A stretch of 12,183 bases of DNA from a virus (taxonomy: Duplodnaviria > Heunggongvirae > Uroviricota > Caudoviricetes), in IMG/VR virus record IMGVR_UViG_2651869691_000007, positions 1 to 12,183 of that record. One strand, given 5' to 3'. A program made the translations under genes and the position numbers. This document shows, piece after piece, positions 317-12,183 of this stretch; positions within the stretch are counted from its first letter, which is position 1; every line of letters starts with the position of its first letter. The notes beneath the pieces were generated by a model, which worked only from the letters and a program-made list of their open reading frames with translations, had not been told where the DNA came from and ran no database searches.

Positions 317-2650
317 TCAGGTTGTCGCAGGGTCGTCACATTTTGGCAGCCAGTCGCCGTAGCTTTCCTCTTTCAGTGTCAGGTTGGTCTGTATCCCCTG
401 TTTGGTATGGCGCTTCTCGTAATTCAGTCCGTATTCCTTCAGCATCACCGGTAGCCCCAGCCCGAACATTTTCAGACTGAGTACATTCCGGTAGCCGTTT
501 GCCTCCATGTAGGCCAGACAGGCGTGATAGAGGTATTTACGGTAATTACGCGGGATGATACTGGCGTTCCCCATATACATGCCGCTGGTCTGCGGCAGGG
601 TTTCCAGATAGCCGATAAAATCAAACGTCGGGTCGGCATCCCGTTTGATGTTCAGCGCCTCGTCTGAGTTCTGCTGGGACTGAAGCAGTGACCGGGCGAG
701 CATCGGGTCGCTGAACTTCTGCATCAGGTGACGCACGATGACCGCCAGCTCGCGGGTGATTTTGTCCTTAAGCTGCGGGTCGCGCTCCTGCGGGGCTATC
801 TGTTCCGGGAAGTGAATAATCACCCGCCGGCGTGACACGCCGCCGCTGCGGTCGGTGAAGCGCATCGGGTTATTGTTCACGGCCAGAATCACCGCCGGGA
901 TATGCGTGGAGTACGCATCCCGGTATTTCGGGTCAACGGACACCGCATCGCCGCCGGTGATGGCCTTGAGTCCGGCACCGTCGCCGCTCCATTTTTCCTG
1001 GTCCGGCAGGCGTATCAGTGAGAAGCCAGTTAACGCGGCACGTTCACGCGGGGATTCCAGCGTCTCAATGGTGGCCGACGTGGCGTTATCCTCCCCGGCC
1101 AGCAGGGTGGCGATTTCGGCCATGATACTTTTGCCGCTGCCGCCGGGACCGGTCACCTCCAGAAAGAGCTGCCAGTCGTAGCGGTTTGCCAGCACCATAA
1201 ACAGTGCGGCCAGAATCACGTCGCGTTTTTCCGCACGGCCACCGGCGGCACGGTCAAGCCAGCGCCAGAACGCGGGGGCGTGGGTCTCCAGCGTTTCACC
1301 GTCCACCGGCGGGGTGAAATCCACATCGCACAGGGTGCGCATCCAGTGTGACGGACTGTGCGGGTGGAACGTGCCGTTCTGCGTGTCGAGCACGCCGTTA
1401 CGAAAGCCAATCAGGCGGCGGGAGGGGGCTTCCTGCTGCGGAATAATCAGCTTCAGGGTGTCCACCACGGAGGCCACCTTCCCGGAGGAGAACGGCGCGC
1501 GCAGACGCTGAAACAGCCCGGCCACATCCCGGGCAAAGTCCTGTGGCGGCAGCACCTTCCAGACACCATTTTCATAGCGGGACAGAAGCTGGCCGTTGGC
1601 ATCGACCGCGAGCGCCTCGCCGTAATGCTCATAGATACGCATGGCCTTTTCGCTGGTACTCATGGCGGAAAACTCCGCTTCGCTCATGGTGTCGAACGGG
1701 CTTTCAGCCGGTGGCCGGATGGCATCATAAATGGCCTTACGGGTGGCCTCCCCGCCGTACTGCGTGAAGGCATCATTCCAGTCACCGAAGACCGGCGGCA
1801 GGGCAACAACACCCTCACACGCATCTGCGGCTGCGGCGGCTTTTGTCTGGCCGTCACCGCTGAGGTCACGGTCTGCGGCAAGGACAATCTGACAGGCCGG
1901 ATACTTCTGCCGGGCAAGGCTGGCCAGAGAAAGGAGGTTCACGGAAGAAAGCGCCACCATCACCGTTTCACCGGTCAGGTGATGCACGGTAAGTGCGGTC
2001 GCGTATCCCTCCGCTATCCACAGACGTTTTCCGGCCTGATTCTGTCCTTCAAAGATGTGACAGGTGCCCCTGACCTGCCCGCCTTTCAGAGTGCGCTTAC
2101 GGCCGTCAGCACTGATTAACTGAAGGTTAACCAGTTCGCCACTGTCGTCATACAGTGGCACCACAAGGTCACCGGCGCGCCAGCTCACGCCACCGGCTCT
2201 GTGTGTGCCGGTCAGCATCCGGCATTCCCGGTCGGGAAAGCCCTTGCGGGTCAGGTAGGCGTTACCGGTTCCGGGACGGGTTTTTGCCATCAGGGTTTGT
2301 GCCAGTGCGGCGGCGTTCTTCCGGGCAGCGTCTGTTTCAGCGCCGGCGGCGGCCGTCACTGCCGGGTCAGCCGGGGGCAGGCTGCCGGTCACGGCAGCCA
2401 CCTTTGCGGCCGCGTCGGACGGGGAGACACCAAACACCTTTTCAACCAGTTTCAGGCCGTCACCGGCACCACACTGATTGCAGTACCAGGTGCCGCGCCC
2501 CTCCCTGTCATCAAAACGGAAGCGGTCACTCCCGCCACAGACCGGACAGGGCTGATGACGGTTTTTCAGCACCTGAATCCCCAGCGCCGGGAGAATACGC
2601 GGCCAGTGGCCGAGCGCATGGCTGACGGTGGCGGTTACGTTCATTTTCAT
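317..2650 (-). CDS. alpha: P4 alpha-type DNA primase-helicase (777 aa)
   Basis: 777-aa ORF; N-terminal Cys4 zinc ribbon (CPVCGG...YCNQCG), TOPRIM-like segment (WIAEGYATAL...LAADRDLSGDG), Walker A GPGGSGKS. Length and N-terminus match recalled P4 alpha. The C-terminal domain would bind the TGTTCACC iterons seen at ori and crr. Confidence 0.9.
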   Translation of the reverse strand: MKMNVTATVSHALGHWPRILPALGIQVLKNRHQPCPVCGGSDRFRFDDREGRGTWYCNQCGAGDGLKLVEKVFGVSPSDAAAKVAAVTGSLPPADPAVTAAAGAETDAARKNAAALAQTLMAKTRPGTGNAYLTRKGFPDRECRMLTGTHRAGGVSWRAGDLVVPLYDDSGELVNLQLISADGRKRTLKGGQVRGTCHIFEGQNQAGKRLWIAEGYATALTVHHLTGETVMVALSSVNLLSLASLARQKYPACQIVLAADRDLSGDGQTKAAAAADACEGVVALPPVFGDWNDAFTQYGGEATRKAIYDAIRPPAESPFDTMSEAEFSAMSTSEKAMRIYEHYGEALAVDANGQLLSRYENGVWKVLPPQDFARDVAGLFQRLRAPFSSGKVASVVDTLKLIIPQQEAPSRRLIGFRNGVLDTQNGTFHPHSPSHWMRTLCDVDFTPPVDGETLETHAPAFWRWLDRAAGGRAEKRDVILAALFMVLANRYDWQLFLEVTGPGGSGKSIMAEIATLLAGEDNATSATIETLESPRERAALTGFSLIRLPDQEKWSGDGAGLKAITGGDAVSVDPKYRDAYSTHIPAVILAVNNNPMRFTDRSGGVSRRRVIIHFPEQIAPQERDPQLKDKITRELAVIVRHLMQKFSDPMLARSLLQSQQNSDEALNIKRDADPTFDFIGYLETLPQTSGMYMGNASIIPRNYRKYLYHACLAYMEANGYRNVLSLKMFGLGLPVMLKEYGLNYEKRHTKQGIQTNLTLKEESYGDWLPKCDDPATT

Positions 2651-2664
2651 GGTGTTGTTCTCCT

Positions 2665-2985
2665 TCAGTGCAGTACCGGCGCTTTTATGTGACGGGCACA
2701 GAGTTCATCCATCACAACCAGCCCGAGAAAGGACAGCGACGGCGCGGCCTTCAGGGGGCCGGATTCCATTAAATCTTCCAGCAGGGCACAGGCTATCTGA
2801 CGCCCTTTTTCCTCACCGTGCTGGCGCAGATAAAAGCCTTCCAGCTCAGCGGCGATGGCCGCCTCCAGTGACTCAAGGGTGAGATGCGGGTAGCGGTGCT
2901 GACGTTCGCACACGGTCAGCCAGGCACAGGCGACAGCGCGACGGTAAAGGGCAGCGCGTAAGACGGGCGGTAAGGGTGTTTTCAT
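2665..2985 (-). CDS. P4 orf106-like protein (106 aa), function unknown
   Basis: 106-aa ORF immediately upstream of alpha in the same operon; AGGGAG Shine-Dalgarno upstream of the ATG; position and length match P4 orf106. Confidence 0.7.
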
Positions 2986-3047
2986 TTGCTTTTCTCCCTG
3001 TGACAGATGACTGCATTCCGTGCCGGTTGCATTAACTGATAAGGCAT
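2982..3047 (-). CDS. Candidate 21-codon leader ORF ([21 protein letters not shown]) translationally coupled to orf106
   Basis: ATG at 3047 preceded by AGGAG (3056-3060) with 8-nt spacing; stop TGA overlaps the orf106 ATG as ATGA (2982-2985). Below the ORF-track length cutoff; no homology evidence. Confidence 0.25.
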
Positions 3048-3120
3048 ATCTGCGTCTCCTGAAGACGTGCGTATCCCTGCGCGAATACGCACATTTAATT
3101 TTTCGGGGGTCGTTTTTTAA

Positions 3121-3576
3121 TTACAGATAATTGCGGTAACTGTTATCCGGGGTGGTTTCCGGGTCAGGCTCCGTGCGGGGAATTTCCCGCCATTCCCGCG
3201 CCACCGGTGCCGCCCGGCTGACCGGAACAGGGGCCTGCGGGTAAATATCCAGATATTTCTCCCGCCATTTCTGTAATTCCGGGTCTCCGGCCATTTCTTT
3301 CAGTACCGCATGCCTGTTTACGGGGCTGCGTTTAAACAGGTCAGGACGGTCACAGGTAAATTCCCGCAGAAAACGCCCCAGCGGGATGTCTGTGGTGCGC
3401 CCGTCAGCGAGGATACGCACAAGGATACTGAATTTACGGCGGTACGGGTTCCAGACAATGTCCGGGCAGCGGTACGGCATTTCCCACGGAATACCGTCTT
3501 CCAGAATGCCGACCACGGCCACATCGGGAAAACCGGCAGAACGGTAAATCTCACCGGGCTGGGGAAAATCAAACAT
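3121..3576 (-). CDS. P4 orf151-like protein (151 aa), function unknown
   Basis: 151-aa ORF between epsilon and orf106; size and position match P4 orf151. Confidence 0.7.
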   Translation of the reverse strand: MFDFPQPGEIYRSAGFPDVAVVGILEDGIPWEMPYRCPDIVWNPYRRKFSILVRILADGRTTDIPLGRFLREFTCDRPDLFKRSPVNRHAVLKEMAGDPELQKWREKYLDIYPQAPVPVSRAAPVAREWREIPRTEPDPETTPDNSYRNYL

Positions 3577-3856
3577 GCGTCCTGTCTCCCCGGTCTTTCT
3601 GCTGGGCGAGAAAATCGCGGCACAGGCCTTTGGCTTTCAGCTCATTCAGCACAAAATCAATATCTTCATTCAGGTAGCTGAAAATATGCGGAATGTAGAG
3701 CTGATGCAGGCCGGAGAGTTCACGGTGAATCAAATCACCCCCAACAAACCGGGATACGGCGCTGGCGCGGTTGAGCTTATGGTAAGCCTCAATGCTGAGG
3801 TGTTCACGGGCGTCATGACGCGCTGAGACGGTCTGAGGGGCTTTTTTATTACGCAC
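3569..3856 (-). CDS. epsilon: P4 epsilon-like protein (95 aa; derepressor of helper prophage in P4)
   Basis: Tail of the 177-aa track ORF. Proposed start is GTG at 3856 with GGAGG 6 nt upstream, giving 95 aa ([15 protein letters not shown]...). The GTG overlaps the last codons of kil; the stop overlaps the orf151 start by 8 nt. Confidence 0.65.
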
Positions 3857-4046
3857 GGGACACCTCCACCACCGGCAGACGGGCAGCAAGGGAGAGCACA
3901 TAGTCACGGACAAGGGAACGGCGGGCGCTGCGTTCATCACCGGCGACGGTGCGAAGCATACAGATACGGGGATGACGGTCTGCGCGACGGACAGCCGCAA
4001 ACACAAAGACAAATTCAGGGTGTGAGGGGGTAAGGGTTGTAGCCAT
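3849..4046 (-). CDS. kil: kil-like 65-codon ORF, first translated gene after PLE
   Basis: ATG at 4046 preceded by strong SD AAGGAGG (4055-4060); 65 aa ([12 protein letters not shown]...VVEVSRA); forms the in-frame C-terminal part of the longer eta ORF, as described for P4 kil/eta. Confidence 0.6.
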
Positions 4047-4448
4047 GATGGCAGCCTCCTTGAAGTAACAGTTACAGCTACCACTAGAGTTCCTACGCTC
4101 ATGGGTGGTAGCCCGGACGGGGGTAGGAATACCGGCCTTCAAGGAAACCGGCCAGCCCGAAGGCTGCCCCGCCCGGACCACCATTATCTGACAGAGGCTA
4201 CGGTTTAAAAACCACAGCCAGAAAAACAGGTGTGCCGAAGCAACGACGTAAAAAAAGACGCATGGCGCGTCATATGTCGCCTTGAAGTAACTCGGGTTCC
4301 TACGCCCGGCTGCCGATTTTGCGGCAGCGGAAAAACTATATCCGCAAATGCCGGAAAAAGGCAAGCCAGAAAAAGGGAGTTTTTGCAGAGCGGGCATCAT
4401 CATGCGTCGTACCCCCGTTTGCGTCCGGCAATGCGTCCGGCCATCCAT
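3849..4448 (-). CDS. eta: eta-like long ORF (199 aa) starting upstream of PLE and containing kil in frame
   Basis: 199-aa ORF whose ATG (4448) lies upstream of the predicted PLE (4335-4364) and which spans the cI region. Matches the nested eta/kil arrangement reported for P4; translation is expected only from PLL transcripts. Confidence 0.4.
4104..4172 (-). ncRNA. cI: cI immunity RNA region (contains seqB)
   Basis: Minus-strand transcript 4172->4104 (69 nt) is closed by GGUGGU/ACCACC, has an internal CAGCC-UUCG-GGCUG tetraloop hairpin, and carries seqB (4123-4144) complementary to seqA (4280-4305) and seqC (4058-4098). Processed ends cannot be set from sequence. Confidence 0.45.
4250..4271 (-). 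terminator. Hairpin plus U7 in the PLE leader (candidate attenuator/terminator between seqA and cI)
   Basis: Minus-strand RNA: GACGC-GCCAU-GCGUC (4257-4271) followed by U7 (4250-4256). The stem is short (5 bp), so efficiency is uncertain. Confidence 0.35.
4335..4364 (-). promoter_or_regulatory. Candidate sigma70 promoter PLE (-35 TTGCCT, 18-bp spacer, -10 TATAGT)
   Basis: On the minus strand: TTGCCT (4359-4364), 18-bp spacer, TATAGT (4335-4340); sits inside eta, just downstream of the vis stop and upstream of seqA, as expected for P4 PLE. Confidence 0.4.
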
Positions 4449-4666
4449 GCGGTGACTTCAGAGTGCAGCCAGGCCACATTTTTACCGCCAAGACTCACCT
4501 GCGGCGGAAATTCCCCCTTACGGATGAGTTCGTAGATGGTCGAGCGTGACAGGCCGCACAGGTGCATCACTTCCGGAAGACGTAAAAAACGCTCCTGTGT
4601 GATGTCCGGCAGCGGCATCAGTGGCGTCACAGGGGCGGGAGAAGGGGAAGAAAAAACAGCTTGCAT
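4400..4666 (-). CDS. vis: Vis/AlpA-family small DNA-binding regulator (88 aa)
   Basis: 88-aa ORF with AlpA-type HTH ([46 protein letters not shown]); GAGG SD 7 nt upstream; first gene downstream of the PLL dyad; matches P4 vis (orf88) in size and position. Confidence 0.75.
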
Positions 4667-4768
4667 CGGGCTACCTCGTTAATGTCCATACAGCACCGGA
4701 TAAGTCCGTCCGGCTTCGGGTAGCGCTTTATTTTGTGAATATTTTCAGCAGACGCAACAGGGGGGATT

Positions 4769-4786
4769 TGTTCCGGCAGCCTTACA
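4769..4786 (-). promoter_or_regulatory. TGT-N12-ACA dyad: candidate Delta/Ogr activator site of late promoter PLL
   Basis: Exact TGT(4769-4771)-N12-ACA(4784-4786); sits roughly 100 bp upstream of the vis ATG (4666), consistent with a -55-centred activator site for a minus-strand promoter. The -10 element is weak, as is typical for activator-dependent P2/P4 late promoters. Confidence 0.45.
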
Positions 4787-4811
4787 ATGCTTGTGTATTT
4801 TTTGTTCATCT

Positions 4812-4841
4812 CCACTTAAAGTCATTTAAAGCCACTTAAAG
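4812..4841. repeat. Three tandem 10-bp repeats (CCACTTAAAG / TCATTTAAAG / CCACTTAAAG)
   Basis: Seen directly; the 10-bp period puts the sites on one helix face; located between the PLL dyad and the ori iterons. Confidence 0.5.
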
Positions 4842-4945
4842 CAATTCGTAATTTTTATAGTGAAATACAAATCGTTTTTTCTTATTCATTCCCGGCGAAT
4901 TAATAAAAACAAACAGTAATAAACAGCACAAAAAGCCCATCAACG

Positions 4946-5050
4946 GGTGAACAGTGGTGAACAGACGGTGAACAGCCATTACTGCAATTGTTCACCCTTT
5001 AACTTACTGTATTACCTATCTTTTTTCTTATGGTGAACAGAGGTGAACAG
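4946..5050. repeat. ori: ori-like iteron cluster: six type-I iterons (five direct GGTGAACAG, one inverted TGTTCACC)
   Basis: GGTGAACAG at 4946-4954, 4956-4964, 4967-4975, 5032-5040, 5042-5050; inverted TGTTCACC at 4989-4996. Flanked by AT-rich DNA and a 15-bp direct repeat AAAAACAAACAGTAA (4905-4919 and 5061-5075). P4 ori is reported to hold six type-I iterons. Confidence 0.6.
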
Positions 5051-5146: not shown

Positions 5147-5218
5147 TCTGCAATGCGTCGTGTTGTTGTCCGGTGTACGTCACAATTTTCTCAACCTGAA
5201 GTGACGAGGAGCCGGAAA

Positions 5219-5928
5219 ATGTCTGACAACACCATCCCTGAATATCTGCAACCCGCACTGGCACAACTGGAAAAGGCCAGAGCCGCCCACCTTGAGAACG
5301 CCCGCCTGATGGATGAGACCGTCACGGCCATTGAACGGGCAGAGCAGGAAAAAAATGCGCTGACGACTGGCGCACGGCCTTTCGTGCAGCCAGTGGTGTC
5401 CTGAGCGACGAGCTGAAACAGCGCCACATTGAGCGCGTGGCACGCCGGGAGCTGGTACAGGAATATGACAATCTGGCCGTGGTGCTGAATTTTGAACGCG
5501 AACGCCTGAAAGGGGCGTGTGACAGCACGGCCACCGCCTACCGGAAGGCACATCATCACCTTCTGAGTCTGTATGCAGAGCATGAGCTGGAACACGCCCT
5601 GAATGAAACCTGTGAGGCGCTTGTCCGGGCAATGCATCTGAGCATTCTGGTACAGAAAAATCCGCTCGCCAACACCACCGGGCATCAGGGCTACGTCGCA
5701 CCCGATAAAGTTGTCATGCAGCAGGTGAAATCATCACTGGAACAGAAAATAAAACAGATGCAAATCAGCCTCACCGGCGAGCCGGTTCTCCGGCTGACCG
5801 GACTGTCAGCGGCAACGCTCCCGCACATGGATTATGAGGTGGCAGGCACACCGGCACAGCGCAAGGTGTGGCAGGACAAAATAGACCAGCAGGGAGCAGA
5901 GCTTAAGGCCAGAGGACTGCTGTCATGA
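5219..5928 (+). pseudogene. sid: sid (external capsid size-determination scaffold) interrupted by a frameshift
   Basis: ATG at 5219 (GAGGAG upstream; MSDNTIPEYLQPALAQ...) runs in frame 2 to TGA at 5402-5404. The continuation (…AFRAASGVLSDELKQRHIERVARRELVQEY… to 5928) is open in frame 1 from 5335. The two frames overlap only in 5335-5401, which contains an A7 run (5349-5355). A sequencing error is possible. Confidence 0.6.
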
Positions 5929-6498: not shown

Positions 6499-7071
6499 AT
6501 GGAAAGCACAGCCTTACAGCAGGCCTTTGACACGTGTCAGAATAACAAAGCAGCATGGCTGCAACGCAAAAATGAGCTGGCTGCGGCCGAACAGGAATAT
6601 CTGCGGCTTCTGTCAGGAGAAGGCAGAAACGTCAGTCGCCTTGACGAATTACGCAATATTATCGAAGTCAGAAAATGGCAGGTGAATCAGGCCGCCGGTC
6701 GTTATATTCGTTCGCATGAAGCCGTTCAGCACATCAGCATCCGCGACCGGCTGAATGATTTTATGCAGCAGCACGGCACAGCACTGGCGGCGGCACTGGC
6801 ACCGGAGCTGATGGGCTACAGTGAGCTGACGGCCATTGCCCGAAACTGTGCCATACAGCGTGCCACAGATGCCCTGCGTGAAGCCCTCCTGTCCTGGCTT
6901 GCGAAGGGTGAAAAAATTAATTATTCCGCACAGGATAGCGACATTTTAACGACCATCGGATTCAGGCCTGACGCGGCTTCGGTGGATGACAGCCGTGAAA
7001 AATTCACCCCTGCGCAGAACATGATTTTTTCGCGTAAAAGTGCGCAACTGGCATCACGTCAGTCTGTGTAA
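6499..7071 (+). CDS. psu: Psu polarity-suppression / capsid decoration protein (190 aa)
   Basis: 190-aa ORF following delta; N-terminus MESTALQQAFDTCQNNKAAW and length match recalled P4 Psu. Confidence 0.85.
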   Translation: MESTALQQAFDTCQNNKAAWLQRKNELAAAEQEYLRLLSGEGRNVSRLDELRNIIEVRKWQVNQAAGRYIRSHEAVQHISIRDRLNDFMQQHGTALAAALAPELMGYSELTAIARNCAIQRATDALREALLSWLAKGEKINYSAQDSDILTTIGFRPDAASVDDSREKFTPAQNMIFSRKSAQLASRQSV

Positions 7072-7235
7072 AATTCCCCGAAAATCCGCCTGTTTTTACT
7101 GAAAAAAGCCATGTATCGATAAGGTGCATGGCTTTGCATGCGTTTCCCTGCCTCATTTTCTGCAGACCGCGCCATTCCCGGCGCGGTCTGAGCGTGTCAG
7201 TGCAACTGCATTAAAACCGCCCCGCAAAGCGGGCG

Positions 7236-7254
7236 GGCGAGGCGGGGAGAGCAT
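7236..7254. other. cos: cos-like site (GGCGAGGCGGGGAGAGCAT)
   Basis: Differs at 2 of 19 positions from the P2/P4 19-nt cohesive end as recalled (GGCGAGGCGGGGAAAGCAC); preceded by GC-rich hairpin CCGCCCCGC-AAA-GCGGGCGG (7217-7236); lies right after psu, where P4 cos is expected. Confidence 0.55.
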
Positions 7255-7272
7255 TGCGCGCAGGTAAAAAAA

Positions 7273-7962
7273 TCATTTATTTTGTAATGCCGCATCAAAT
7301 CTGGTCTTGAGATCTTGGAATGGGATAACGAGTTTATCGATATAATCTTTATTATTATTTTGTAGAATTGCTTCAACAAAATCATTTAGAGGTGCATAGT
7401 TTTCTAATACTTTAGAATCGATAAAATCTTTATAGGACATACATTCAGCACCAATGCTAAGGCTTTCACCTATATACTTTTGTTCAAGAGATCTAATACA
7501 AGGAAAACCAATATCGTTCTCTCGTAGGGCTATAGAAATATTTTTGATTAATTCAGTTATTAACATTTCATCATTAGTTGGTGAAAATACAGATGAATCT
7601 CTATTTTTCCTGAATTGATGTACCCAGCAAAAATATTGGCATAGATAGAATCTTGTACTATCAATATAATATTGATCCGACGATAGGTCATTGTGATCTT
7701 TAATATAACATAGCCTTCCTAAAAAACCATTTGCAGCACTAAGTAATGTTAACCCCCAACGTCCGATTTCAAGATCTCTTGCTTTTTTAAAATTATAAGC
7801 ACGTTCATCCTCTTTAATTCTCTGTTCACTTTCATATTTCAACTTATTTTTAAATGATTCTAACTCTCTTTTATCAATATGTTGTAAAAAAGCCTTACAA
7901 ACAAATCCAATAATTGCAAATGAAATGCTTGATGACAAAATACCTTCCCAAAAGCTACTCAT
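7273..7962 (-). CDS. Small membrane-anchored partner protein (229 aa) of the RT-nitrilase gene
   Basis: N-terminal hydrophobic helix (ILSSSISFAIIGFVCKAFL); ATG overlaps the upstream gene stop as ATGA (7959-7962) with GAGG SD; ~30% GC; no motif I can recognise in the soluble part. Confidence 0.75.
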   Translation of the reverse strand: MSSFWEGILSSSISFAIIGFVCKAFLQHIDKRELESFKNKLKYESEQRIKEDERAYNFKKARDLEIGRWGLTLLSAANGFLGRLCYIKDHNDLSSDQYYIDSTRFYLCQYFCWVHQFRKNRDSSVFSPTNDEMLITELIKNISIALRENDIGFPCIRSLEQKYIGESLSIGAECMSYKDFIDSKVLENYAPLNDFVEAILQNNNKDYIDKLVIPFQDLKTRFDAALQNK

Positions 7963-10835
7963 TTCTCACCTCGCTCTAATAGAGCATTATAGTCAAACCC
8001 TGGAGGATTGTGTTTAATAGTATCGGAGTTAATTCTGAATGAACGATATTGAGCCTCTCTCAATGCATATATATTTAAAGTAGTAGTTAGGATGCAATGG
8101 TTTTCCCCACCTTTTACATATATCTTATTTGAAATAGTGCTACTGGTCGGTTGTAGAACACAAGAACCGCCATAATGCGAAGTATTTGATTGAGCCACAT
8201 AACAATGTAAATCCCGTGTCGCTGACTCAGTGATATGTTGATAATAATTTATATCTTGATTCCATACGCAAGCAAATAAAATATCCAACTGCGAACGAAA
8301 TAATGCTCTATGCTCGATATTAGCCAGTTCAAAACAGTTGTATGTAGAAAATGATACGTTTTTCCACTTAATCAAATGATACCGTTGTTTACTAGGTTTA
8401 GGAGAGGATATTTTTAACCTTAAAGAATTCAGCATCGTAATCTCACTAGGTGCGTAATGATTTTTCACTCGAAAAACTAACATACTGGATTTGTGTTTAA
8501 AGTTTGAAGTATAAGGCAGCATTTCAACCAAAATATTATATGCGCGTTCGTTAATAACCCAATGCTCTAATCCGAAAATCAAAGATATTTGTTTTCTCCT
8601 TGAATGTGCTGCCATAAAAGGTAACCACGACACAGGAATTGATAACTCAGGGAGTAGTAATATCTGCACATTTTCTTCAGTTGCCGAGTTGAGAATACGA
8701 TAAAGGTTTCTTTGTCGTTCATAACTTAAATTTGGAGACTGATCTTTTCTGCAAGCACTTTCAATATTACGACGTTCAACTCTCATATTTGCCAACGCAA
8801 CTTTTATTGTGTCATTACCACTTCTATCATCAATTCCTACCTTTATTTCAAGAGCTTTATTATCTTTTATCTTAGTAACAGAGCAATTTTTTAAGTGATG
8901 CTTATTTTCATGCGTAAACTTATGTAGTTTTCTTGTATGAAGAGCATCAATCAAATCGAAAAGCTGCTTTTCATCAGCATGAATATATCTAGGGGTTTTA
9001 TTTAATTTATCATTATCAAGTGGAATACCATGCATCTTACTGTATAAATTCTCCTCAGTAAGATCTCCTTTATATTTAGTATAGTTAGCTAAAGGCCAAG
9101 ACACTAGATTATGACGAATCAAATTACTGCTTCTAAATCTTTCAATTAGAACAGACATTCCATCGGACTGTTTAATTAAAGATTTCAAACCTTCCAAAGC
9201 TCTATTTTGTGGCTCTTTATCACCTAAAATGACATTTAAATCTAACAAAGCCAAATTCAAACAAAGAGAAATATCAATGTATTTCTGCATTCCATTTTTA
9301 AGTTTTGGAGATATAACACTATCACCTTCCTTCCACTTCATTTTATTAATTGATTCTTTAATTTGTTTGTAAAAGGCGATTGAAAATCCATATTTTCTTG
9401 TAATTAATGTATACGATAGAACTTTCTCCCATAACCGACTGAACCTTAGAGAATTTTCACCTTTAAAAAACAGCGTTATTTGCTTTAAGGTATTCTCATT
9501 CGATGGAAGATTGCAAAGCCTATGAGCTAAGATATGTGATGATATATATTTTGATAATTCAGTTTCATTCTCTGCCAAACCTACAATACTTCTAAATTTA
9601 TTTGCCGAACCATCAAGTAATATATCATAAGCAAATTTATCGAGATCGCTAGATATATGTTCTTCCGGTAAAAAACGAAATGCACTGCTTCTGTTCTCAA
9701 TTTCTTGTTTGAAGACTTGTAAACCAGCCAAACTATGATCTTTATTGAAATAATGAAAAATCAATTTATCCTTTTGAATTGGTAATTCATGATAACTCTC
9801 GGTCAACGTAAAGCCTTTCTCATCATTCGCTGCCTGTTTGATGAATCCATTAAGGGTTCGCTCTATGAATTTTATTACTTCTTCACCTTTATCTTCTTTT
9901 TTAATGTCCGGAGATGAAAAAACTAAAAGAATATCATCCACATAGCGACCGTAGTACGATGGATTAATTTTTGATTTAATATCTTTATCAAAACCCATTA
10001 AATACCAATTAGATAATATGGCAGAAGAAGTAAATCCAATTGGAATGCCTTTTGATGAAGGAGTTGAATGTGTCACACCAATATATGGAGATATTTTCTC
10101 TCTGTATTTTTGATGCATCAACCTCAATTTACTATTCAACAACATAGAAAGAGCTTTAATTTCTTCTAATTGTTCTTCGTCAATAATTCTATCAATGGCA
10201 TCAAAATCTATATCTATATTATAATAAAAACCCTTAAGATCCAGAGAAAGAATTGCAACATCATTTCGCTCTTTTTCTATAACTTCTATCGCTTTATCGA
10301 TACCACCATCTCGCCATTTATTATAATTATCAATGTATCTTTCAAAGATATTTTTTGAGGAGTTTTTTGGCGCATCGAAACTATTCTTAGAATATTTTTT
10401 TATTACTTTTGATATTCTATTTCCATAAACCGAATCAGAAAACTTGTCATCTAGCATTGAACCAACAAAGATAGACCAGAGTGTTTCTATTAAATATATT
10501 TCAATAGGAGCAACGATCAAATAATTTACAGCACCTACTTTGTATTCATCTGATGTCTTATTATTACTTAAAAAAAGAGCTCCGCTCGTTTGCTCAATAT
10601 CCAAATGGCTATCAATTTTTTTTGGTAATAATTCAACATCAATTTTATTTAGCCACTCATTAAAGTTAATGTCATTATTATTTTCAAAAAAATCAACCAC
10701 TTTTTCTATTTTTTCGTCATAGAGAGAATCTTCAAATTGAGCGATTTCTTCCTTTAGGAAAAAATTTAAGTTTTCGTAGTAAGCATATGACTTAAGACAA
10801 TTATATGCACTAACAACTATATCTTTTGTAATCAT
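7959..10835 (-). CDS. Reverse transcriptase fused to C-terminal nitrilase (carbon-nitrogen hydrolase) domain, 958 aa; candidate defence-associated RT
   Basis: RT motifs: LSLDLKGFYYNIDIDF (aa 196-211), PIGFTSSAILSNWYL (aa 265-279), YGRYVDDILLVF with YVDD encoded at 9933-9944. CN-hydrolase signature: IKVALANMRV, LLLPE (Glu730, 8646-8648), FRVKNHY (Lys), YNCFE (Cys834 at 8334-8336, Glu836). N-terminal ~185 aa and the aa 310-670 region are unassigned. Confidence 0.85.
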   Translation of the reverse strand: MITKDIVVSAYNCLKSYAYYENLNFFLKEEIAQFEDSLYDEKIEKVVDFFENNNDINFNEWLNKIDVELLPKKIDSHLDIEQTSGALFLSNNKTSDEYKVGAVNYLIVAPIEIYLIETLWSIFVGSMLDDKFSDSVYGNRISKVIKKYSKNSFDAPKNSSKNIFERYIDNYNKWRDGGIDKAIEVIEKERNDVAILSLDLKGFYYNIDIDFDAIDRIIDEEQLEEIKALSMLLNSKLRLMHQKYREKISPYIGVTHSTPSSKGIPIGFTSSAILSNWYLMGFDKDIKSKINPSYYGRYVDDILLVFSSPDIKKEDKGEEVIKFIERTLNGFIKQAANDEKGFTLTESYHELPIQKDKLIFHYFNKDHSLAGLQVFKQEIENRSSAFRFLPEEHISSDLDKFAYDILLDGSANKFRSIVGLAENETELSKYISSHILAHRLCNLPSNENTLKQITLFFKGENSLRFSRLWEKVLSYTLITRKYGFSIAFYKQIKESINKMKWKEGDSVISPKLKNGMQKYIDISLCLNLALLDLNVILGDKEPQNRALEGLKSLIKQSDGMSVLIERFRSSNLIRHNLVSWPLANYTKYKGDLTEENLYSKMHGIPLDNDKLNKTPRYIHADEKQLFDLIDALHTRKLHKFTHENKHHLKNCSVTKIKDNKALEIKVGIDDRSGNDTIKVALANMRVERRNIESACRKDQSPNLSYERQRNLYRILNSATEENVQILLLPELSIPVSWLPFMAAHSRRKQISLIFGLEHWVINERAYNILVEMLPYTSNFKHKSSMLVFRVKNHYAPSEITMLNSLRLKISSPKPSKQRYHLIKWKNVSFSTYNCFELANIEHRALFRSQLDILFACVWNQDINYYQHITESATRDLHCYVAQSNTSHYGGSCVLQPTSSTISNKIYVKGGENHCILTTTLNIYALREAQYRSFRINSDTIKHNPPGFDYNALLERGEK

Positions 10836-10926
10836 AACGCATCATTCCGTGTATAAGTCTGTTATAGATGAAAGTAAAACTGAAATTGATTAATACCTAA
10901 CAAAAACATACAGAAAAAATCAATTA

Positions 10927-12183
10927 TTAATATTTTTTTGCAAAATCAAATGGTGTTACGAAAGTCTCACGATTTGCTGATAGGAAATCCGCCCACCATT
11001 GCATCATCAATCGACGTTCGTCCAAATGCTCTGAAGTATGGATATAAGCTGCACGAACATTATTGCGCTCCGAGTGGCTTAACTGACGTTCTATCGCATC
11101 ATCACTCCAAAGCCCCGACTCCCCCAAAGCACCACGCGCCATTGTTCTAAAACCATGCCCACATACTTCCGTTTGTGTGTCGTAGCCCATAGTCCTGAGC
11201 GCATTATTAACTGTGTTTTCGCTCATAACTTTATTGGGATCATGATCACCGGGAAACAGTCTAGGATTATCTCCACTAAGCTTCTTCAACTCATCCAGCA
11301 AAGCTAGAGCCTGAGTGCTCAATGGAACAATATGTTCCTCTTTCATCTTCATCCCACGATAGGAGTAACGCACACCTTCGATTTCTTCACGCCGCGCCGG
11401 TATCCGCCAGCAGGCGTTATCAAAATCAAACTCATCCCATCGGGCAAATCGCATCTCACTAGAGCGAACGAAGGTAAGTAGAGATAACTCGACTGCAATA
11501 CGCGTCATTTTGCGGCCACGATATGCCGCAAGGCGTGCCAGAAACTCAGGGAAACGGCTGGAAGGTAGAGCTGGATAGTGTCGTGCTTTAGTTGTCGATA
11601 ACGCACCAGCCATATCGCTAGCCGGGTTCGAGTCGATATAATCGTTCTGTACGGCATACCGCATAATGGCCGTGACGCGCTGTTGCAGGCGCTGAGCGAC
11701 GTCGTGTTTACCACTGACATCAACTTTTTTAATCGGGGCTAATAGGTGGCTAGTTTTGAGCTGGCGAATGTCGGACGAACCGATATGAGGGAAGATATAA
11801 AGCTCAAGATAGCGAAGAACACGCGATCGATGGTCTTCACTCCAGCGCTTGTTACTGGCATGCCATTCGCGAGCAATGGTTTCGAAGGTATATGCCCCCG
11901 AATTCTCGGCCTGAGCTTCTTTCTGTTCGGCTTTTGGGTCAATGCCCTGCACTAACAGCTTTTTAGCTTCGTCGCGCTTTGCTCTTGCCTGAGCAAGCGT
12001 CACTGTAGGCCAAACACCAAAAGCGAGGCGATCCTCTTTTTTGTCAGAGGGGCGTCGGTATTTCATGCGCCAGTATTTAGAACCCTTGGCCGAAACCTCG
12101 AGATACAAACCGCCGCCATCGGCCATTTTGTATGTTTTGTCTTTTGGCTTTGCGGTCTCGACCTGTCTGGCGTTGAGCTTCAT
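10927..12183 (-). CDS. int: P4-family tyrosine integrase (418 aa), start codon at window edge
   Basis: N-terminus MKLNARQVETAKPKDKTYKMADGGGLYLEVSAKGSKYWRMKYR typical of P4/CP4-57-type integrases; catalytic-domain boxes TFVRSSEMR, HGFRTMARG, VRAAYIHTSE. ATG occupies 12181-12183, so upstream extension cannot be excluded. Confidence 0.9.
   Translation of the reverse strand: MKLNARQVETAKPKDKTYKMADGGGLYLEVSAKGSKYWRMKYRRPSDKKEDRLAFGVWPTVTLAQARAKRDEAKKLLVQGIDPKAEQKEAQAENSGAYTFETIAREWHASNKRWSEDHRSRVLRYLELYIFPHIGSSDIRQLKTSHLLAPIKKVDVSGKHDVAQRLQQRVTAIMRYAVQNDYIDSNPASDMAGALSTTKARHYPALPSSRFPEFLARLAAYRGRKMTRIAVELSLLTFVRSSEMRFARWDEFDFDNACWRIPARREEIEGVRYSYRGMKMKEEHIVPLSTQALALLDELKKLSGDNPRLFPGDHDPNKVMSENTVNNALRTMGYDTQTEVCGHGFRTMARGALGESGLWSDDAIERQLSHSERNNVRAAYIHTSEHLDERRLMMQWWADFLSANRETFVTPFDFAKKY

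What the first reader, a model, noticed from the sequence alone, without database searches (positions are those of the whole stretch)
7273..10835. Two-gene RT-nitrilase plus membrane-partner operon in the satellite cargo slot
The 958-aa protein combines a bona fide RT core (YVDD at 9933-9944) with a C-terminal CN-hydrolase signature (Glu in LLLPE, Lys in FRVKNHY, Cys-x-Glu in YNCFE), separated by ~350 aa of unassigned sequence and preceded by ~185 aa of unassigned N-terminus. It is translationally coupled (ATGA) to a 229-aa protein with one N-terminal transmembrane helix. The pair sits where P4-like satellites are known to carry antiphage systems. The architecture recalls DRT type 1 (UG1 RT-nitrilase), but I cannot tell whether it belongs to that family or is a distinct lineage. 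No room for a large structured ncRNA is evident in the 91-bp upstream spacer (10836-10926).
Basis: partly seen in the sequence, partly recalled or inferred. Interest (0 to 1): 0.9.

Follow-up and report, generated by a model that had tools for sequence, protein, structure and literature searches.

The report
Known RT-nitrilase antiphage system in P4 satellite
This two-gene reverse-transcriptase/nitrilase plus membrane-protein operon is real, but it is the same anti-phage system from an E. coli P4-like satellite that was cloned and shown to work in 2022, so it is a correct identification and not a discovery.

Summary
The operon lies between psu/cos and int of a P4-like satellite.

It is not new. 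PADLOC models RT_UG5-nitrilase (E=0, 958/958) and RTasTM (229/229) match over their full length. Plasmid pFR76 of Rousset et al. 2022 ("RT-nitrilase + 1TM", E. coli E101, P4 hotspot) matches the window. Its TM protein is 100% identical. The 399 RT residues and 399 nt of insert that the stored supplement shows are also identical. That fragment (about window 6948-10958) gave phage resistance at room temperature.

The same protein, called "DRT5L", was purified in a 2026 NSMB paper. It made covalently attached DNA without added template.

The family is UG5-large (class 3 UG/Abi). This is a sister lineage of DRT1/UG1, not a member of it.

Still open: the role of the TM partner, the nitrilase substrate and the priming residue. 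I propose Ser384, in a conserved loop predicted to be disordered. The C-terminal K-x-x-P-P-G-F motif matches the essential lid residues of DRT1.

The parts
7959..10835 (-). RT-nitrilase gene (958 aa), UG5-large class 3 UG/Abi reverse transcriptase; RefSeq WP_000628823.1
   Evidence: ORF confirmed. PADLOC RT_UG5-nitrilase PDLC02995 gives E=0 over 1-958/958 and PDLC03780 gives 2.2e-252. It is 100% identical to the CDS in CP062910. The first 399 aa are identical to pFR76 protein 1.
9825..10541 (-). RT (palm/fingers) domain, about aa 99-337, containing YVDD at 9933-9944
   Evidence: Pfam RVT_1 3.4e-11 over aa 171-328. HHpred RVT_1 over aa 99-337 in Rousset Table S3. YVDD is invariant in 58/58 relatives.
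9570..9689 (-). Conserved loop predicted to be disordered, aa 383-422 (RSSAFRFLP...), with Ser384 as the candidate protein-priming residue
   Evidence: pLDDT is below 50 over aa 383-422. Despite that, S384 is conserved in 57/58, P390 in 53/58, K413 in 53/58 and R415 in 51/58. It is analogous in position to the unresolved DRT1 loop 382-478 that carries priming Ser402. The assignment is an inference.
8916..9569 (-). Alpha-helical connector domain between RT and nitrilase, about aa 423-640
   Evidence: The AlphaFold2 model is all-helical over aa 419-640 with pLDDT about 80-95. Foldseek matches to AbiA 8oz7, DRT9 and DRT4 extend beyond the RT core.
7992..8816 (-). CN-hydrolase (nitrilase) domain, aa 674-948, with catalytic E730, K791, C834 and E836
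   Evidence: PADLOC RTasNitrilase 2.7e-34. Cys834 aligns with DRT1 C1116. Foldseek matches nitrilase-superfamily structures. The tetrad is invariant in 58/58 relatives.
7995..8015 (-). C-terminal K941-x-x-P944-P945-G946-F947 motif, candidate active-site lid
   Evidence: K941 is conserved in 58/58, P944 in 57/58 and P945 in 51/58 (the other 7 have Ala). DRT1 ends ...K1219-T-Q-P-A1223-G-F-K, and K1219A or A1223F abolish defence.
7273..7962 (-). Membrane partner gene (229 aa), PADLOC RTasTM / Mestre cluster 1858; RefSeq WP_000094232.1
   Evidence: PADLOC PDLC03013 5.2e-164 over 1-229/229. It is 100% identical to pFR76 protein 2. The AF2 model has pLDDT 87 and is all-helical.
7882..7950 (-). Single N-terminal transmembrane helix of the partner, about aa 5-27
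   Evidence: The Kyte-Doolittle maximum is 1.94 at aa 8-26. There are no K/R residues before it and 7 in the 24 residues after it, which predicts an N-out/C-in topology. The AF2 model has a helix at aa 3-28.
10836..10926 (-). 91-nt spacer between the int stop and the RT start; presumed native promoter and 5' UTR
   Evidence: It is found in only 33/5426 E. coli genomes (31 carry at least 80% of the 7100-11000 query). It is not conserved with the Aeromonas, Pantoea or Dickeya copies. Its folding z-score is +1.28. There is no Rfam hit.
7217..7236 (-). Terminator-like GC hairpin followed by a T-run, 37 nt downstream of the partner's stop codon
   Evidence: Found. It lies in P4 backbone sequence (97.8% identical to P4 11489-11624).
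7236..7254 (.). P4-type cos site (GGCGAGGCGGGGAGAGCAT), marking the left end of the packaged satellite genome
   Evidence: The window sequence is. The right end of P4 aligns up to window 7235. The P4 left-end sequence appears in Rousset Table S2A.
6948..10958 (-). Extent of the fragment cloned in pFR76 and shown to confer phage resistance
   Evidence: The forward end of the insert equals window 10958 and the reverse primer site is at 6948.
6499..7071 (+). psu, left boundary of the P4 defence hotspot
   Evidence: Pfam Psu 1.3e-88.
10927..12183 (-). P4-type tyrosine integrase, right boundary of the hotspot
   Evidence: ORF. Annotated as integrase in CP062910, next to tRNA-Leu.

Best explanation
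This is the UG5-large RT-nitrilase + 1TM antiphage system. DefenseFinder calls it Rst_RT-nitrilase-Tm (name recalled from memory; the string occurs in one paper), PADLOC calls it RT_UG5-nitrilase + RTasTM, and one paper calls the enzyme 'DRT5L'. It is carried in the psu-cos-[cargo]-int hotspot of a P4-like satellite.

Shown in the literature for this sequence:
- The operon, with its native flanks, protects E. coli from phage at room temperature.
- The purified 958-aa enzyme polymerises dNTPs without added template, in the presence of RNase A, into DNA that stays covalently attached to the protein.

Inferred by homology with DRT1:
- A hydroxyl residue in the conserved disordered loop after the RT primes synthesis. 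My candidate is Ser384.
- The short semi-random ssDNA adduct drives oligomerisation through the nitrilase domains.
- The assembly is held dormant by a C-terminal lid (K941-x-x-P-P-G-F) that occludes a neighbouring nitrilase site.
- A phage replication factor that acts on ssDNA releases the block.
- The Glu730/Lys791/Cys834/Glu836 nitrilase then hydrolyses an unidentified essential C-N compound, which gives abortive infection.

The 229-aa partner is predicted to be anchored N-out/C-in, with a roughly 200-aa helical domain in the cytoplasm. It most likely acts as a clade-specific co-effector or membrane tether of the RT-nitrilase. Its requirement has not been tested directly.
For: Identity:
- PADLOC gives full-length hits, E=0 for the RT-nitrilase and 5.2e-164 for the partner.
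- The pFR76 TM protein is 229/229 identical. The RT is 399/399 identical and the insert DNA 399/399 identical over what the stored supplement shows.
- 'DRT5L' in the NSMB supplement aligns at 926/958 positions, despite errors from machine reading of the PDF.
- Both proteins are 100% identical to WP_000628823.1 and WP_000094232.1 in CP062910.

Function:
- Rousset 2022 lists it among the seven validated systems; it was assayed at room temperature from its native promoter.

Biochemistry:
- Class 3 DRTs, including DRT5L, synthesise protein-linked DNA without template.

Conservation:
- YVDD, E730, K791, C834 and E836 are conserved in 58/58 relatives, S384 in 57/58, K941 in 58/58 and P944 in 57/58.

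No ncRNA:
- There is no Rfam hit in 7000-11000.
- The spacer folds no better than shuffled sequence.
- The flanks are not conserved between genera.
- The functional clone carries only about 123 nt upstream and about 325 nt of P4 backbone downstream.

Partner linkage:
- The Aeromonas, Pantoea and Dickeya copies all keep a 228-232-aa gene that overlaps the RT gene by 4-8 nt.
Against: - The mechanism beyond DNA-adduct synthesis is transferred from DRT1, which is only distantly related. The profile E-value is 1.8e-25 and covers only the RT core and the end of the nitrilase domain.
- DRT1's priming Ser402 is reported as not conserved in other class 3 DRTs. The loop of this protein has no detectable sequence similarity to DRT1.
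- No catalytic or partner-deletion mutants of this E. coli system are described in the main text or in the supplement passages I searched of Rousset 2022. Mestre et al.'s statement that the TM protein is 'necessary' is therefore not backed by any experiment I found there.
- DRT11, a UG5-large system without a TM partner, defends on its own. The partner may therefore be accessory.
- The stored supplement cuts the published RT sequence at 399 aa. Residues 400-958 are tied to the published construct only through the noisy DRT5L text and the RefSeq identity.
Confidence: 0.9

Rival explanations
1. The membrane partner is the real killing effector, acting as a membrane-disrupting or channel protein. 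[quoted passage not shown] In this reading the nitrilase serves regulation or assembly and is not the toxin.
For: - Rousset et al. call the partner a 'transmembrane effector'.
- The DRT1 paper raises a Hailong-like role for drt1b.
- The partner is strictly linked and translationally coupled in four genera.
- Its predicted large cytoplasmic helical domain could contact the RT or its DNA adduct.
Against: - The nitrilase tetrad and the lid motif are invariant in 58/58 relatives, which argues for a catalytic role.
- The nitrilase Cys is essential in DRT1 and DRT11.
- None of 80 distant UG5-large loci encodes a homolog of this partner, and a Kyte-Doolittle scan of the longest ORF just downstream of the RT gene flagged a short (<=230 aa) TM-containing protein in only about seven.
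Confidence: 0.25
2. It is a member of DRT type 1 (UG1: Drt1a + Drt1b).
For: The domain order is the same: RT, helical domain, then nitrilase, with a downstream TM gene. DRT1 (9yfd) is the best hit among solved structures. The C-terminal K-x-x-P-[A/P]-G-F motif is shared.
Against: - PADLOC Drt1a models score only 49-96 bits, best stretches in the RT core, against 838-2254 bits over the full length for the UG5-nitrilase models.
- The protein is 958 aa, against 1229 aa for DRT1.
- The partner matches only the two RTasTM models in the PADLOC library at E<=1; I did not confirm that the library holds a Drt1b model.
- Rousset and Mestre both place the RT in UG5.
Confidence: 0.02
3. It is an ncRNA-templated reverse transcriptase, like retrons, DRT2, DRT3 or DRT9, with a template RNA hidden in or near the operon.
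For: The RT core is similar to Drt3a, Drt2 and retron RTs. The 91-nt spacer travels with the module within E. coli.
Against: [quoted passage not shown]
- There is no Rfam match.
- The spacer's folding z-score is +1.28.
- No non-coding flank is conserved between genera.
- In Dickeya only 62 nt separate int from the RT gene.
- RNA-seq found no ncRNA at the UG5-large DRT11 locus.
Confidence: 0.03

Closest known systems
RT-nitrilase + 1TM system of E. coli E101 (plasmid pFR76; Rousset et al. 2022, PMC9122126); UG5-large with TM cluster 1858 (Mestre et al. 2022); 'DRT5L' (Neville et al. 2026)
   Same: It appears to be the same operon. The TM protein is 229/229 identical. The RT is 399/399 identical and the insert DNA 399/399 identical over what the stored text shows. 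The position is the same, between psu/cos and int of a P4-like satellite. The length matches the 958-aa and 229-aa PADLOC models exactly.
   Different: Nothing was detected in the module. This window's satellite backbone carries a 25-bp deletion that frameshifts sid. I do not know whether E101 shares it.
DRT11, UG5-large of Sinorhizobium meliloti RMO17 (PMC13436386)
   Same: Same family (UG5-large). It is an RT-connector-nitrilase fusion of about 1,000 aa with YVDD and a K-C-E nitrilase centre. It shows an abortive-infection-like phenotype, and no ncRNA was detected.
   Different: DRT11 has no TM partner and works as a single gene. It is plasmid-borne in an alpha-proteobacterium. The E. coli clade has a dedicated partner that I found only in Enterobacterales by protein search, plus an unverified 228-aa gene in the same position in Aeromonas.
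DRT type 1 / UG1 (Drt1a +/- Drt1b), cryo-EM structure PDB 9yfd (PMC13275509)
   Same: Class 3 UG/Abi. Domain order is RT, alpha-helical domain, then nitrilase. Synthesis is template-free and protein-primed. Both have a disordered loop after the RT, and the catalytic Cys aligns. The C-terminal K-x-x-P-[A/P]-G-F motif is shared. A downstream TM gene is optional.
   Different: It belongs to a different RT clade (UG1 against UG5). DRT1 is 1229 aa against 958 aa. The priming loop cannot be aligned. The TM partner matches only the RTasTM models in PADLOC, so no link to Drt1b was detected. Filament formation and a Dda-type trigger are not shown for UG5-large.
gop-beta-cII of satellite P4 and other P4-hotspot cargos (PARIS, TIR-NLR and others)
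   Same: They occupy the same slot, immediately after cos and before int. They are expressed from their own promoters and defend the host of the satellite.
   Different: The proteins and mechanisms are unrelated.

Membership tests
UG5-large (class 3 UG/Abi RT-nitrilase) | The RT domain falls in the UG5 group rather than UG1, UG6 or UG29 | tested here: met
   PADLOC RT_UG5-nitrilase PDLC03780 gives 2.2e-252 and PDLC02995 gives E=0. RT_UG5_small gives 1.9e-142. Drt1a gives 3.4e-28 and RT_UG6 gives 4.5e-06. No tree was built here; the assignment agrees with Rousset and Mestre.
UG5-large (class 3 UG/Abi RT-nitrilase) | A C-terminal CN-hydrolase domain fused in the same polypeptide, with an intact Glu-Lys-Cys(-Glu) centre | tested here: met
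   RTasNitrilase 2.7e-34 over aa 674-948. Foldseek matches nitrilase-superfamily structures. E730, K791, C834 and E836 are conserved in 58/58 relatives. The Pfam CN_hydrolase model misses it with hmmscan.
UG5-large (class 3 UG/Abi RT-nitrilase) | An intact RT active site (YxDD) | tested here: met
   YVDD at aa 298-301, invariant in 58/58 relatives.
UG5-large (class 3 UG/Abi RT-nitrilase) | An optional downstream TM protein (cluster 85 or 1858) | tested here: met
   RTasTM PDLC03013 5.2e-164 and PDLC03799 1.2e-122. One TM helix. ATGA overlap with the RT gene.
UG5-large (class 3 UG/Abi RT-nitrilase) | Template-independent, protein-primed DNA synthesis | not testable with these tools
   Reported for purified DRT5L, whose printed sequence matches this protein. 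Sequence analysis cannot show it.
UG5-large (class 3 UG/Abi RT-nitrilase) | Confers phage resistance | not testable with these tools
   Reported for the pFR76 insert, which corresponds to window 6948-10958.
DRT type 1 (UG1, Drt1a/Drt1b) | Full-length match to Drt1a, at about 1200-1300 aa | tested here: not met
   The Drt1a models match mainly the RT core (best stretch aa 137-357; 96 and 49 bits). The protein is 958 aa. NCBIfam gives no DRT1-type hit.
DRT type 1 (UG1, Drt1a/Drt1b) | The conserved priming serine (S402) in its sequence context | tested here: inconclusive
   The loop region (aa 350-500) has no detectable similarity to 9yfd. A loop in the analogous position, with a near-invariant Ser384, does exist.
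DRT type 1 (UG1, Drt1a/Drt1b) | The partner is Drt1b | tested here: inconclusive
   Only the two RTasTM models match the partner in the PADLOC library at E<=1. I did not confirm that the library contains a Drt1b model, so a Drt1b match is undetected rather than excluded.
P4-like phage satellite defence hotspot | The cargo lies between psu and int, next to cos, in an element that carries the P4 core genes | tested here: met
   Alpha primase, DUF5375, epsilon, Ash, AlpA, sid, delta and Psu are present, as are C4/isrK RNAs. The cos site is at 7236-7254. Gene order is collinear with P4 NC_001609. In CP062910 the element sits at tRNA-Leu.
ncRNA-dependent RT systems (retron, DRT2, DRT3, DRT9) | A conserved structured ncRNA adjacent to the RT gene | tested here: not met
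   There is no Rfam hit in the module. The folding z-score is +1.28. No conserved flank exists between genera.

The most novel reading that the evidence does not exclude
The Enterobacterales/Aeromonas clade of UG5-large may be a two-effector variant of class 3 DRTs. In this reading the RT primes on Ser384, which lies in a conserved disordered loop. The resulting DNA adduct would then gate the nitrilase through the shared C-terminal K-x-x-P-P-G-F lid. It would also gate a clade-specific, cytoplasm-facing membrane partner with no detectable link to Drt1b, which adds a membrane-damage arm. That arm could also explain the room-temperature dependence. None of this has been tested for this system.
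Probability: 0.2. Interest if true: 0.45.

Novelty: already known. Interest (0 to 1): 0.12.

Why it matters
As a discovery it does not matter. [quoted passage not shown]

Its remaining value is as a well-defined, natively E. coli model for open questions about class 3 DRTs:
- what the nitrilase hydrolyses;
- which residue primes DNA synthesis;
- what the membrane partner does.

This analysis adds three concrete, testable pointers:
- Ser384 is the candidate priming site.
- The C-terminal lid motif is shared with DRT1.
- The partner family was found only in Enterobacterales by protein search, with a likely Aeromonas copy, and was absent from all 80 distant UG5-large loci examined.

Tried and rejected
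- **Pfam and NCBIfam.** Pfam hmmscan found no CN_hydrolase hit. NCBIfam gave nothing above its cut-offs. Both libraries are uninformative for the nitrilase domain and the partner.
- **Fold of the RT-nitrilase.** The Foldseek PDB library ends in April 2026 and did not return 9yfd. Similarity to DRT1 therefore rests on sequence profiles and not on structural superposition.
- **Priming loop.** A phmmer search with the loop and connector fragment (aa 350-500) found no real PDB match. The priming site cannot be transferred from DRT1 by alignment.
- **Genome-contig scan.** I recovered close relatives through the look-up of encoding contigs instead.
- **Partner homologs in distant loci.** hmmsearch and tblastn with the partner found nothing in the 80 distant loci.
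- **Promoter scan.** No sigma-70-like site reached the threshold inside the 91-nt spacer. The native promoter is inferred only from the activity of the published clone.
- **Rejected readings.** I considered and rejected a group II intron, a retron and a mobile retroelement. There is no ncRNA or intron RNA match, and the retron and group II RT models score far below their cut-offs.

Full report
**1.

The window has a 958-aa ORF at 7959-10835 and a 229-aa ORF at 7273-7962, both on the minus strand. They overlap by ATGA.

The small protein has one hydrophobic segment, aa 8-26, with a mean Kyte-Doolittle score of 1.94. There are no K/R residues before it and seven in the 24 residues after it, so the remaining roughly 200 residues should face the cytoplasm. 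The upstream spacer is 91 nt.

The module has 31% GC against 54% for the rest of the window.

**2. The context is a P4-like satellite.**

The other ORFs are the P4 alpha primase, DUF5375, epsilon (Derepression), Ash, AlpA/Vis, sid, delta and psu. Rfam finds the P4 immunity RNAs: C4 at 4101-4188 and isrK/c4-a1b1 at 4251-4341.

Gene order is collinear with P4 NC_001609. In P4, gop-beta-cII occupies the slot between cos and int. Window 7100-7235 is 97.8% identical to the right end of P4. The cos sequence GGCGAGGCGGGGAGAGCAT follows at 7236-7254, 18 nt from the partner's stop codon. In a near-identical E. coli chromosome the element sits at tRNA-Leu.

**3. What the operon is.**

PADLOC models match both proteins from end to end:

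| Query | Model | Result |
|---|---|---|
| 958-aa protein | RT_UG5-nitrilase PDLC02995 | E=0, 2254 bits, 1-958/958 |
| 958-aa protein | RT_UG5-nitrilase PDLC03780 | 2.2e-252 |
| 958-aa protein | Drt1a | 96 bits, best stretch in the RT core (aa 137-357) |
| 229-aa protein | RTasTM PDLC03013 | 5.2e-164, 1-229/229 |
| 229-aa protein | RTasTM PDLC03799 | 1.2e-122 |

Pfam sees only RVT_1. The nitrilase domain is supported by four other lines:
- PADLOC RTasNitrilase at 2.7e-34.
- A homolog profile that aligns Cys834 to the catalytic Cys1116 of DRT1, PDB 9yfd.
- Foldseek matches of the AlphaFold2 model (pLDDT 78.7, pTM 0.80) to amidases, Nit2 and Lnt, with TM-score on target 0.61-0.67.
- The published HHpred result, CN_hydrolase at 99.7% probability over aa 678-929.

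**4. It is already published.**

*Rousset et al. 2022 (PMC9122126).* They surveyed the psu-int hotspot of P4-like satellites. They validated an "RT-nitrilase + 1TM" system from E. coli E101 on plasmid pFR76, under its native promoter, assayed at room temperature.
- Their Table S2A gives the insert. Its first 399 nt equal window 10560-10958 on the minus strand, and the reverse primer site is at window 6948.
- Protein 2 is 229/229 identical to the window's partner.
- The 399 residues of protein 1 that the stored file shows are identical.
- Their Table S1B counts 53 loci and notes that the RT is UG5 and the system is "similar to type I DRT".

*Mestre et al. 2022 (PMC9226505).* They classify it as UG5-large (class 3) with TM cluster 1858.

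*Neville et al. 2026 (PMC13275509).* They purified "DRT5L". The sequence printed in their supplement aligns to the window protein at 926 of 958 positions, despite errors from machine reading of the PDF. [quoted passage not shown] That DNA is released only after proteinase K treatment, so synthesis is protein-primed and template-free.

*RefSeq.* It annotates the pair as WP_000628823.1 and WP_000094232.1, both 100% identical to the window. At least 80% of the 7100-11000 query is present in 31 of 5,426 complete E. coli genomes.

**5. Tests of an ncRNA.**

- No Rfam family matches the module, even at E<=1.
- The leader folds no better than shuffled sequence, with z = +1.28.
- The 91-nt spacer accompanies the module in 33 E. 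coli genomes. It shares nothing with the upstream regions of the Aeromonas, Pantoea and Dickeya copies.
- In Dickeya only 62 nt separate int from the RT gene.
- The downstream flank is P4 backbone.
- The published functional clone has about 123 nt upstream.

Together with the DRT5L biochemistry and the RNA-seq result for DRT11, a templating ncRNA is very unlikely.

(a) *Two layers of relatives.* The RT has a tight clade at 60% identity or more in Enterobacterales and Aeromonas. There is then a jump to 47% or less in a very broad family that reaches Bacteroidota, Firmicutes and Methanoregulaceae.

(b) *A narrow partner family.* The partner has only 29 clusters, all those that carry an organism name being Enterobacterales, at 46-100% identity. 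It tracks the tight RT clade: the Pantoea and Dickeya copies keep a downstream partner-sized gene overlapping the RT gene by 4-8 nt, and Aeromonas has a 228-aa gene in the same position whose homology I did not test. No homolog occurs in 80 distant UG5-large loci. A hydrophobicity scan of the longest ORF just downstream of the RT gene flagged a short TM-containing protein in only about seven of them.

(c) *Partner structure.* The partner models confidently (pLDDT 87) as a TM helix, a long helix (aa 31-89) and a helical bundle. It resembles nothing specific in the PDB.

(d) *A candidate priming loop.* Residues 383-422 of the RT-nitrilase are predicted to be disordered yet are strongly conserved. 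Across 58 relatives, Ser384 is Ser in 57 and Thr in 1. P390 is kept in 53, K413 in 53 and R415 in 51. In DRT1 the priming Ser402 lies in an unresolved loop (382-478), 77 residues after the YVDD aspartates. Here Ser384 lies 83 residues after them. I therefore propose Ser384 as the priming residue. This is an inference. The loops do not align, and the DRT1 authors note that S402 is not conserved outside DRT1.

(e) *A shared C-terminal motif.* The C-terminus carries K941-x-x-P944-P945-G946-F947, with K in 58/58, P944 in 57/58 and P945 in 51/58 (Ala in the other 7). DRT1 ends K1219-T-Q-P-A1223-G-F-K. There, K1219A and A1223F abolish defence, and these residues form the domain-swapped lid over a neighbouring nitrilase site. 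This supports a shared lid mechanism.

**7. Mechanism.**

*Shown for this sequence (from the literature):*
- Phage defence from the native fragment.
- Covalent, template-free DNA synthesis.

*Inferred from DRT1 and DRT11:*
- Adduct-driven oligomerisation.
- C-terminal autoinhibition.
- Release by a phage ssDNA-acting factor.
- Hydrolysis of an unknown essential C-N compound by the nitrilase.
- An abortive-infection outcome.

*Unknown:* the role of the partner. I found no deletion experiment for this system in the main text or the supplement passages I searched of Rousset et al., although Mestre et al. call the TM protein necessary. DRT11 and most DRT1 operons work without a TM protein. The main rival is that the partner is a DNA-adduct-gated membrane effector, as in Hailong. 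I give that about 0.25.

**8. Verdict.**

The family question is settled: it is UG5-large, and not UG1/DRT1. The finding is an already known, experimentally validated system, so its interest as a discovery is low.

Noticed in passing
window 5153-5928 (+), junction near 5357/5358: The capsid-size gene sid is split into two ORFs (5153-5404 and 5437-5928). Compared with the intact 244-aa sid of CP062910 and of P4, the window lacks 25 bp, which frameshifts the gene. This satellite may therefore be unable to redirect P2 capsid size.
   Followed up: partly
window 7236-7254: The P4-type cos site (GGCGAGGCGGGGAGAGCAT) lies only 18 nt beyond the stop codon of the membrane-partner gene. The defence operon is therefore the first thing at the left end of the packaged linear genome. 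A terminator-like hairpin at 7217-7236(-) abuts cos.
   Followed up: partly
window 4101-4341 (-): The P4 immunity region RNAs are present. C4 antisense RNA scores 86 bits, isrK scores 73 bits and the c4-a1b1 target scores 50 bits, all above Rfam gathering scores.
   Followed up: no
L086 (NZ_OZ546925.1) 1360-5013; also H13 NZ_OZ546911.1: In two human E. coli isolates (the one inspected is from blood culture) an IS1A element has inserted into the RT-nitrilase gene. It splits the gene into a 603-aa RT part and a 358-aa C-terminal part, a natural knock-out. H14 (JNE170426) appears truncated as well, with a 719-aa product (P0049).
   Followed up: partly
L081 (Aeromonas hydrophila), L082 (Pantoea), L083 (Dickeya dadantii): The same two-gene cassette keeps 31-33% GC in hosts of 51-62% GC, and it sits in unrelated contexts. 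In Aeromonas it lies between housekeeping genes. In Pantoea it lies next to smpB. In Dickeya it lies beside an integrase in a different primase-bearing island at the pepA/lptFG locus. It is therefore a freely moving cassette and not tied to P4.
   Followed up: partly
L013, L015, L016, L047, L064 (Methanoregulaceae / Methanolinea MAGs): Full-length UG5-large RT-nitrilase homologs, about 35% identical and with an intact YVDD and nitrilase tetrad, occur in methanogenic archaea.
   Followed up: no
L004, L020, L032, L046, L063, L074, L077 downstream of the RT gene: Many distant UG5-large genes are followed directly by an ORF of about 1,000-1,130 aa. Several start with a motif that I judged, from the sequence start alone, to resemble type I restriction HsdR (KEDHISQLPALQLL), which would fit defence-island neighbourhoods.
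   Followed up: no
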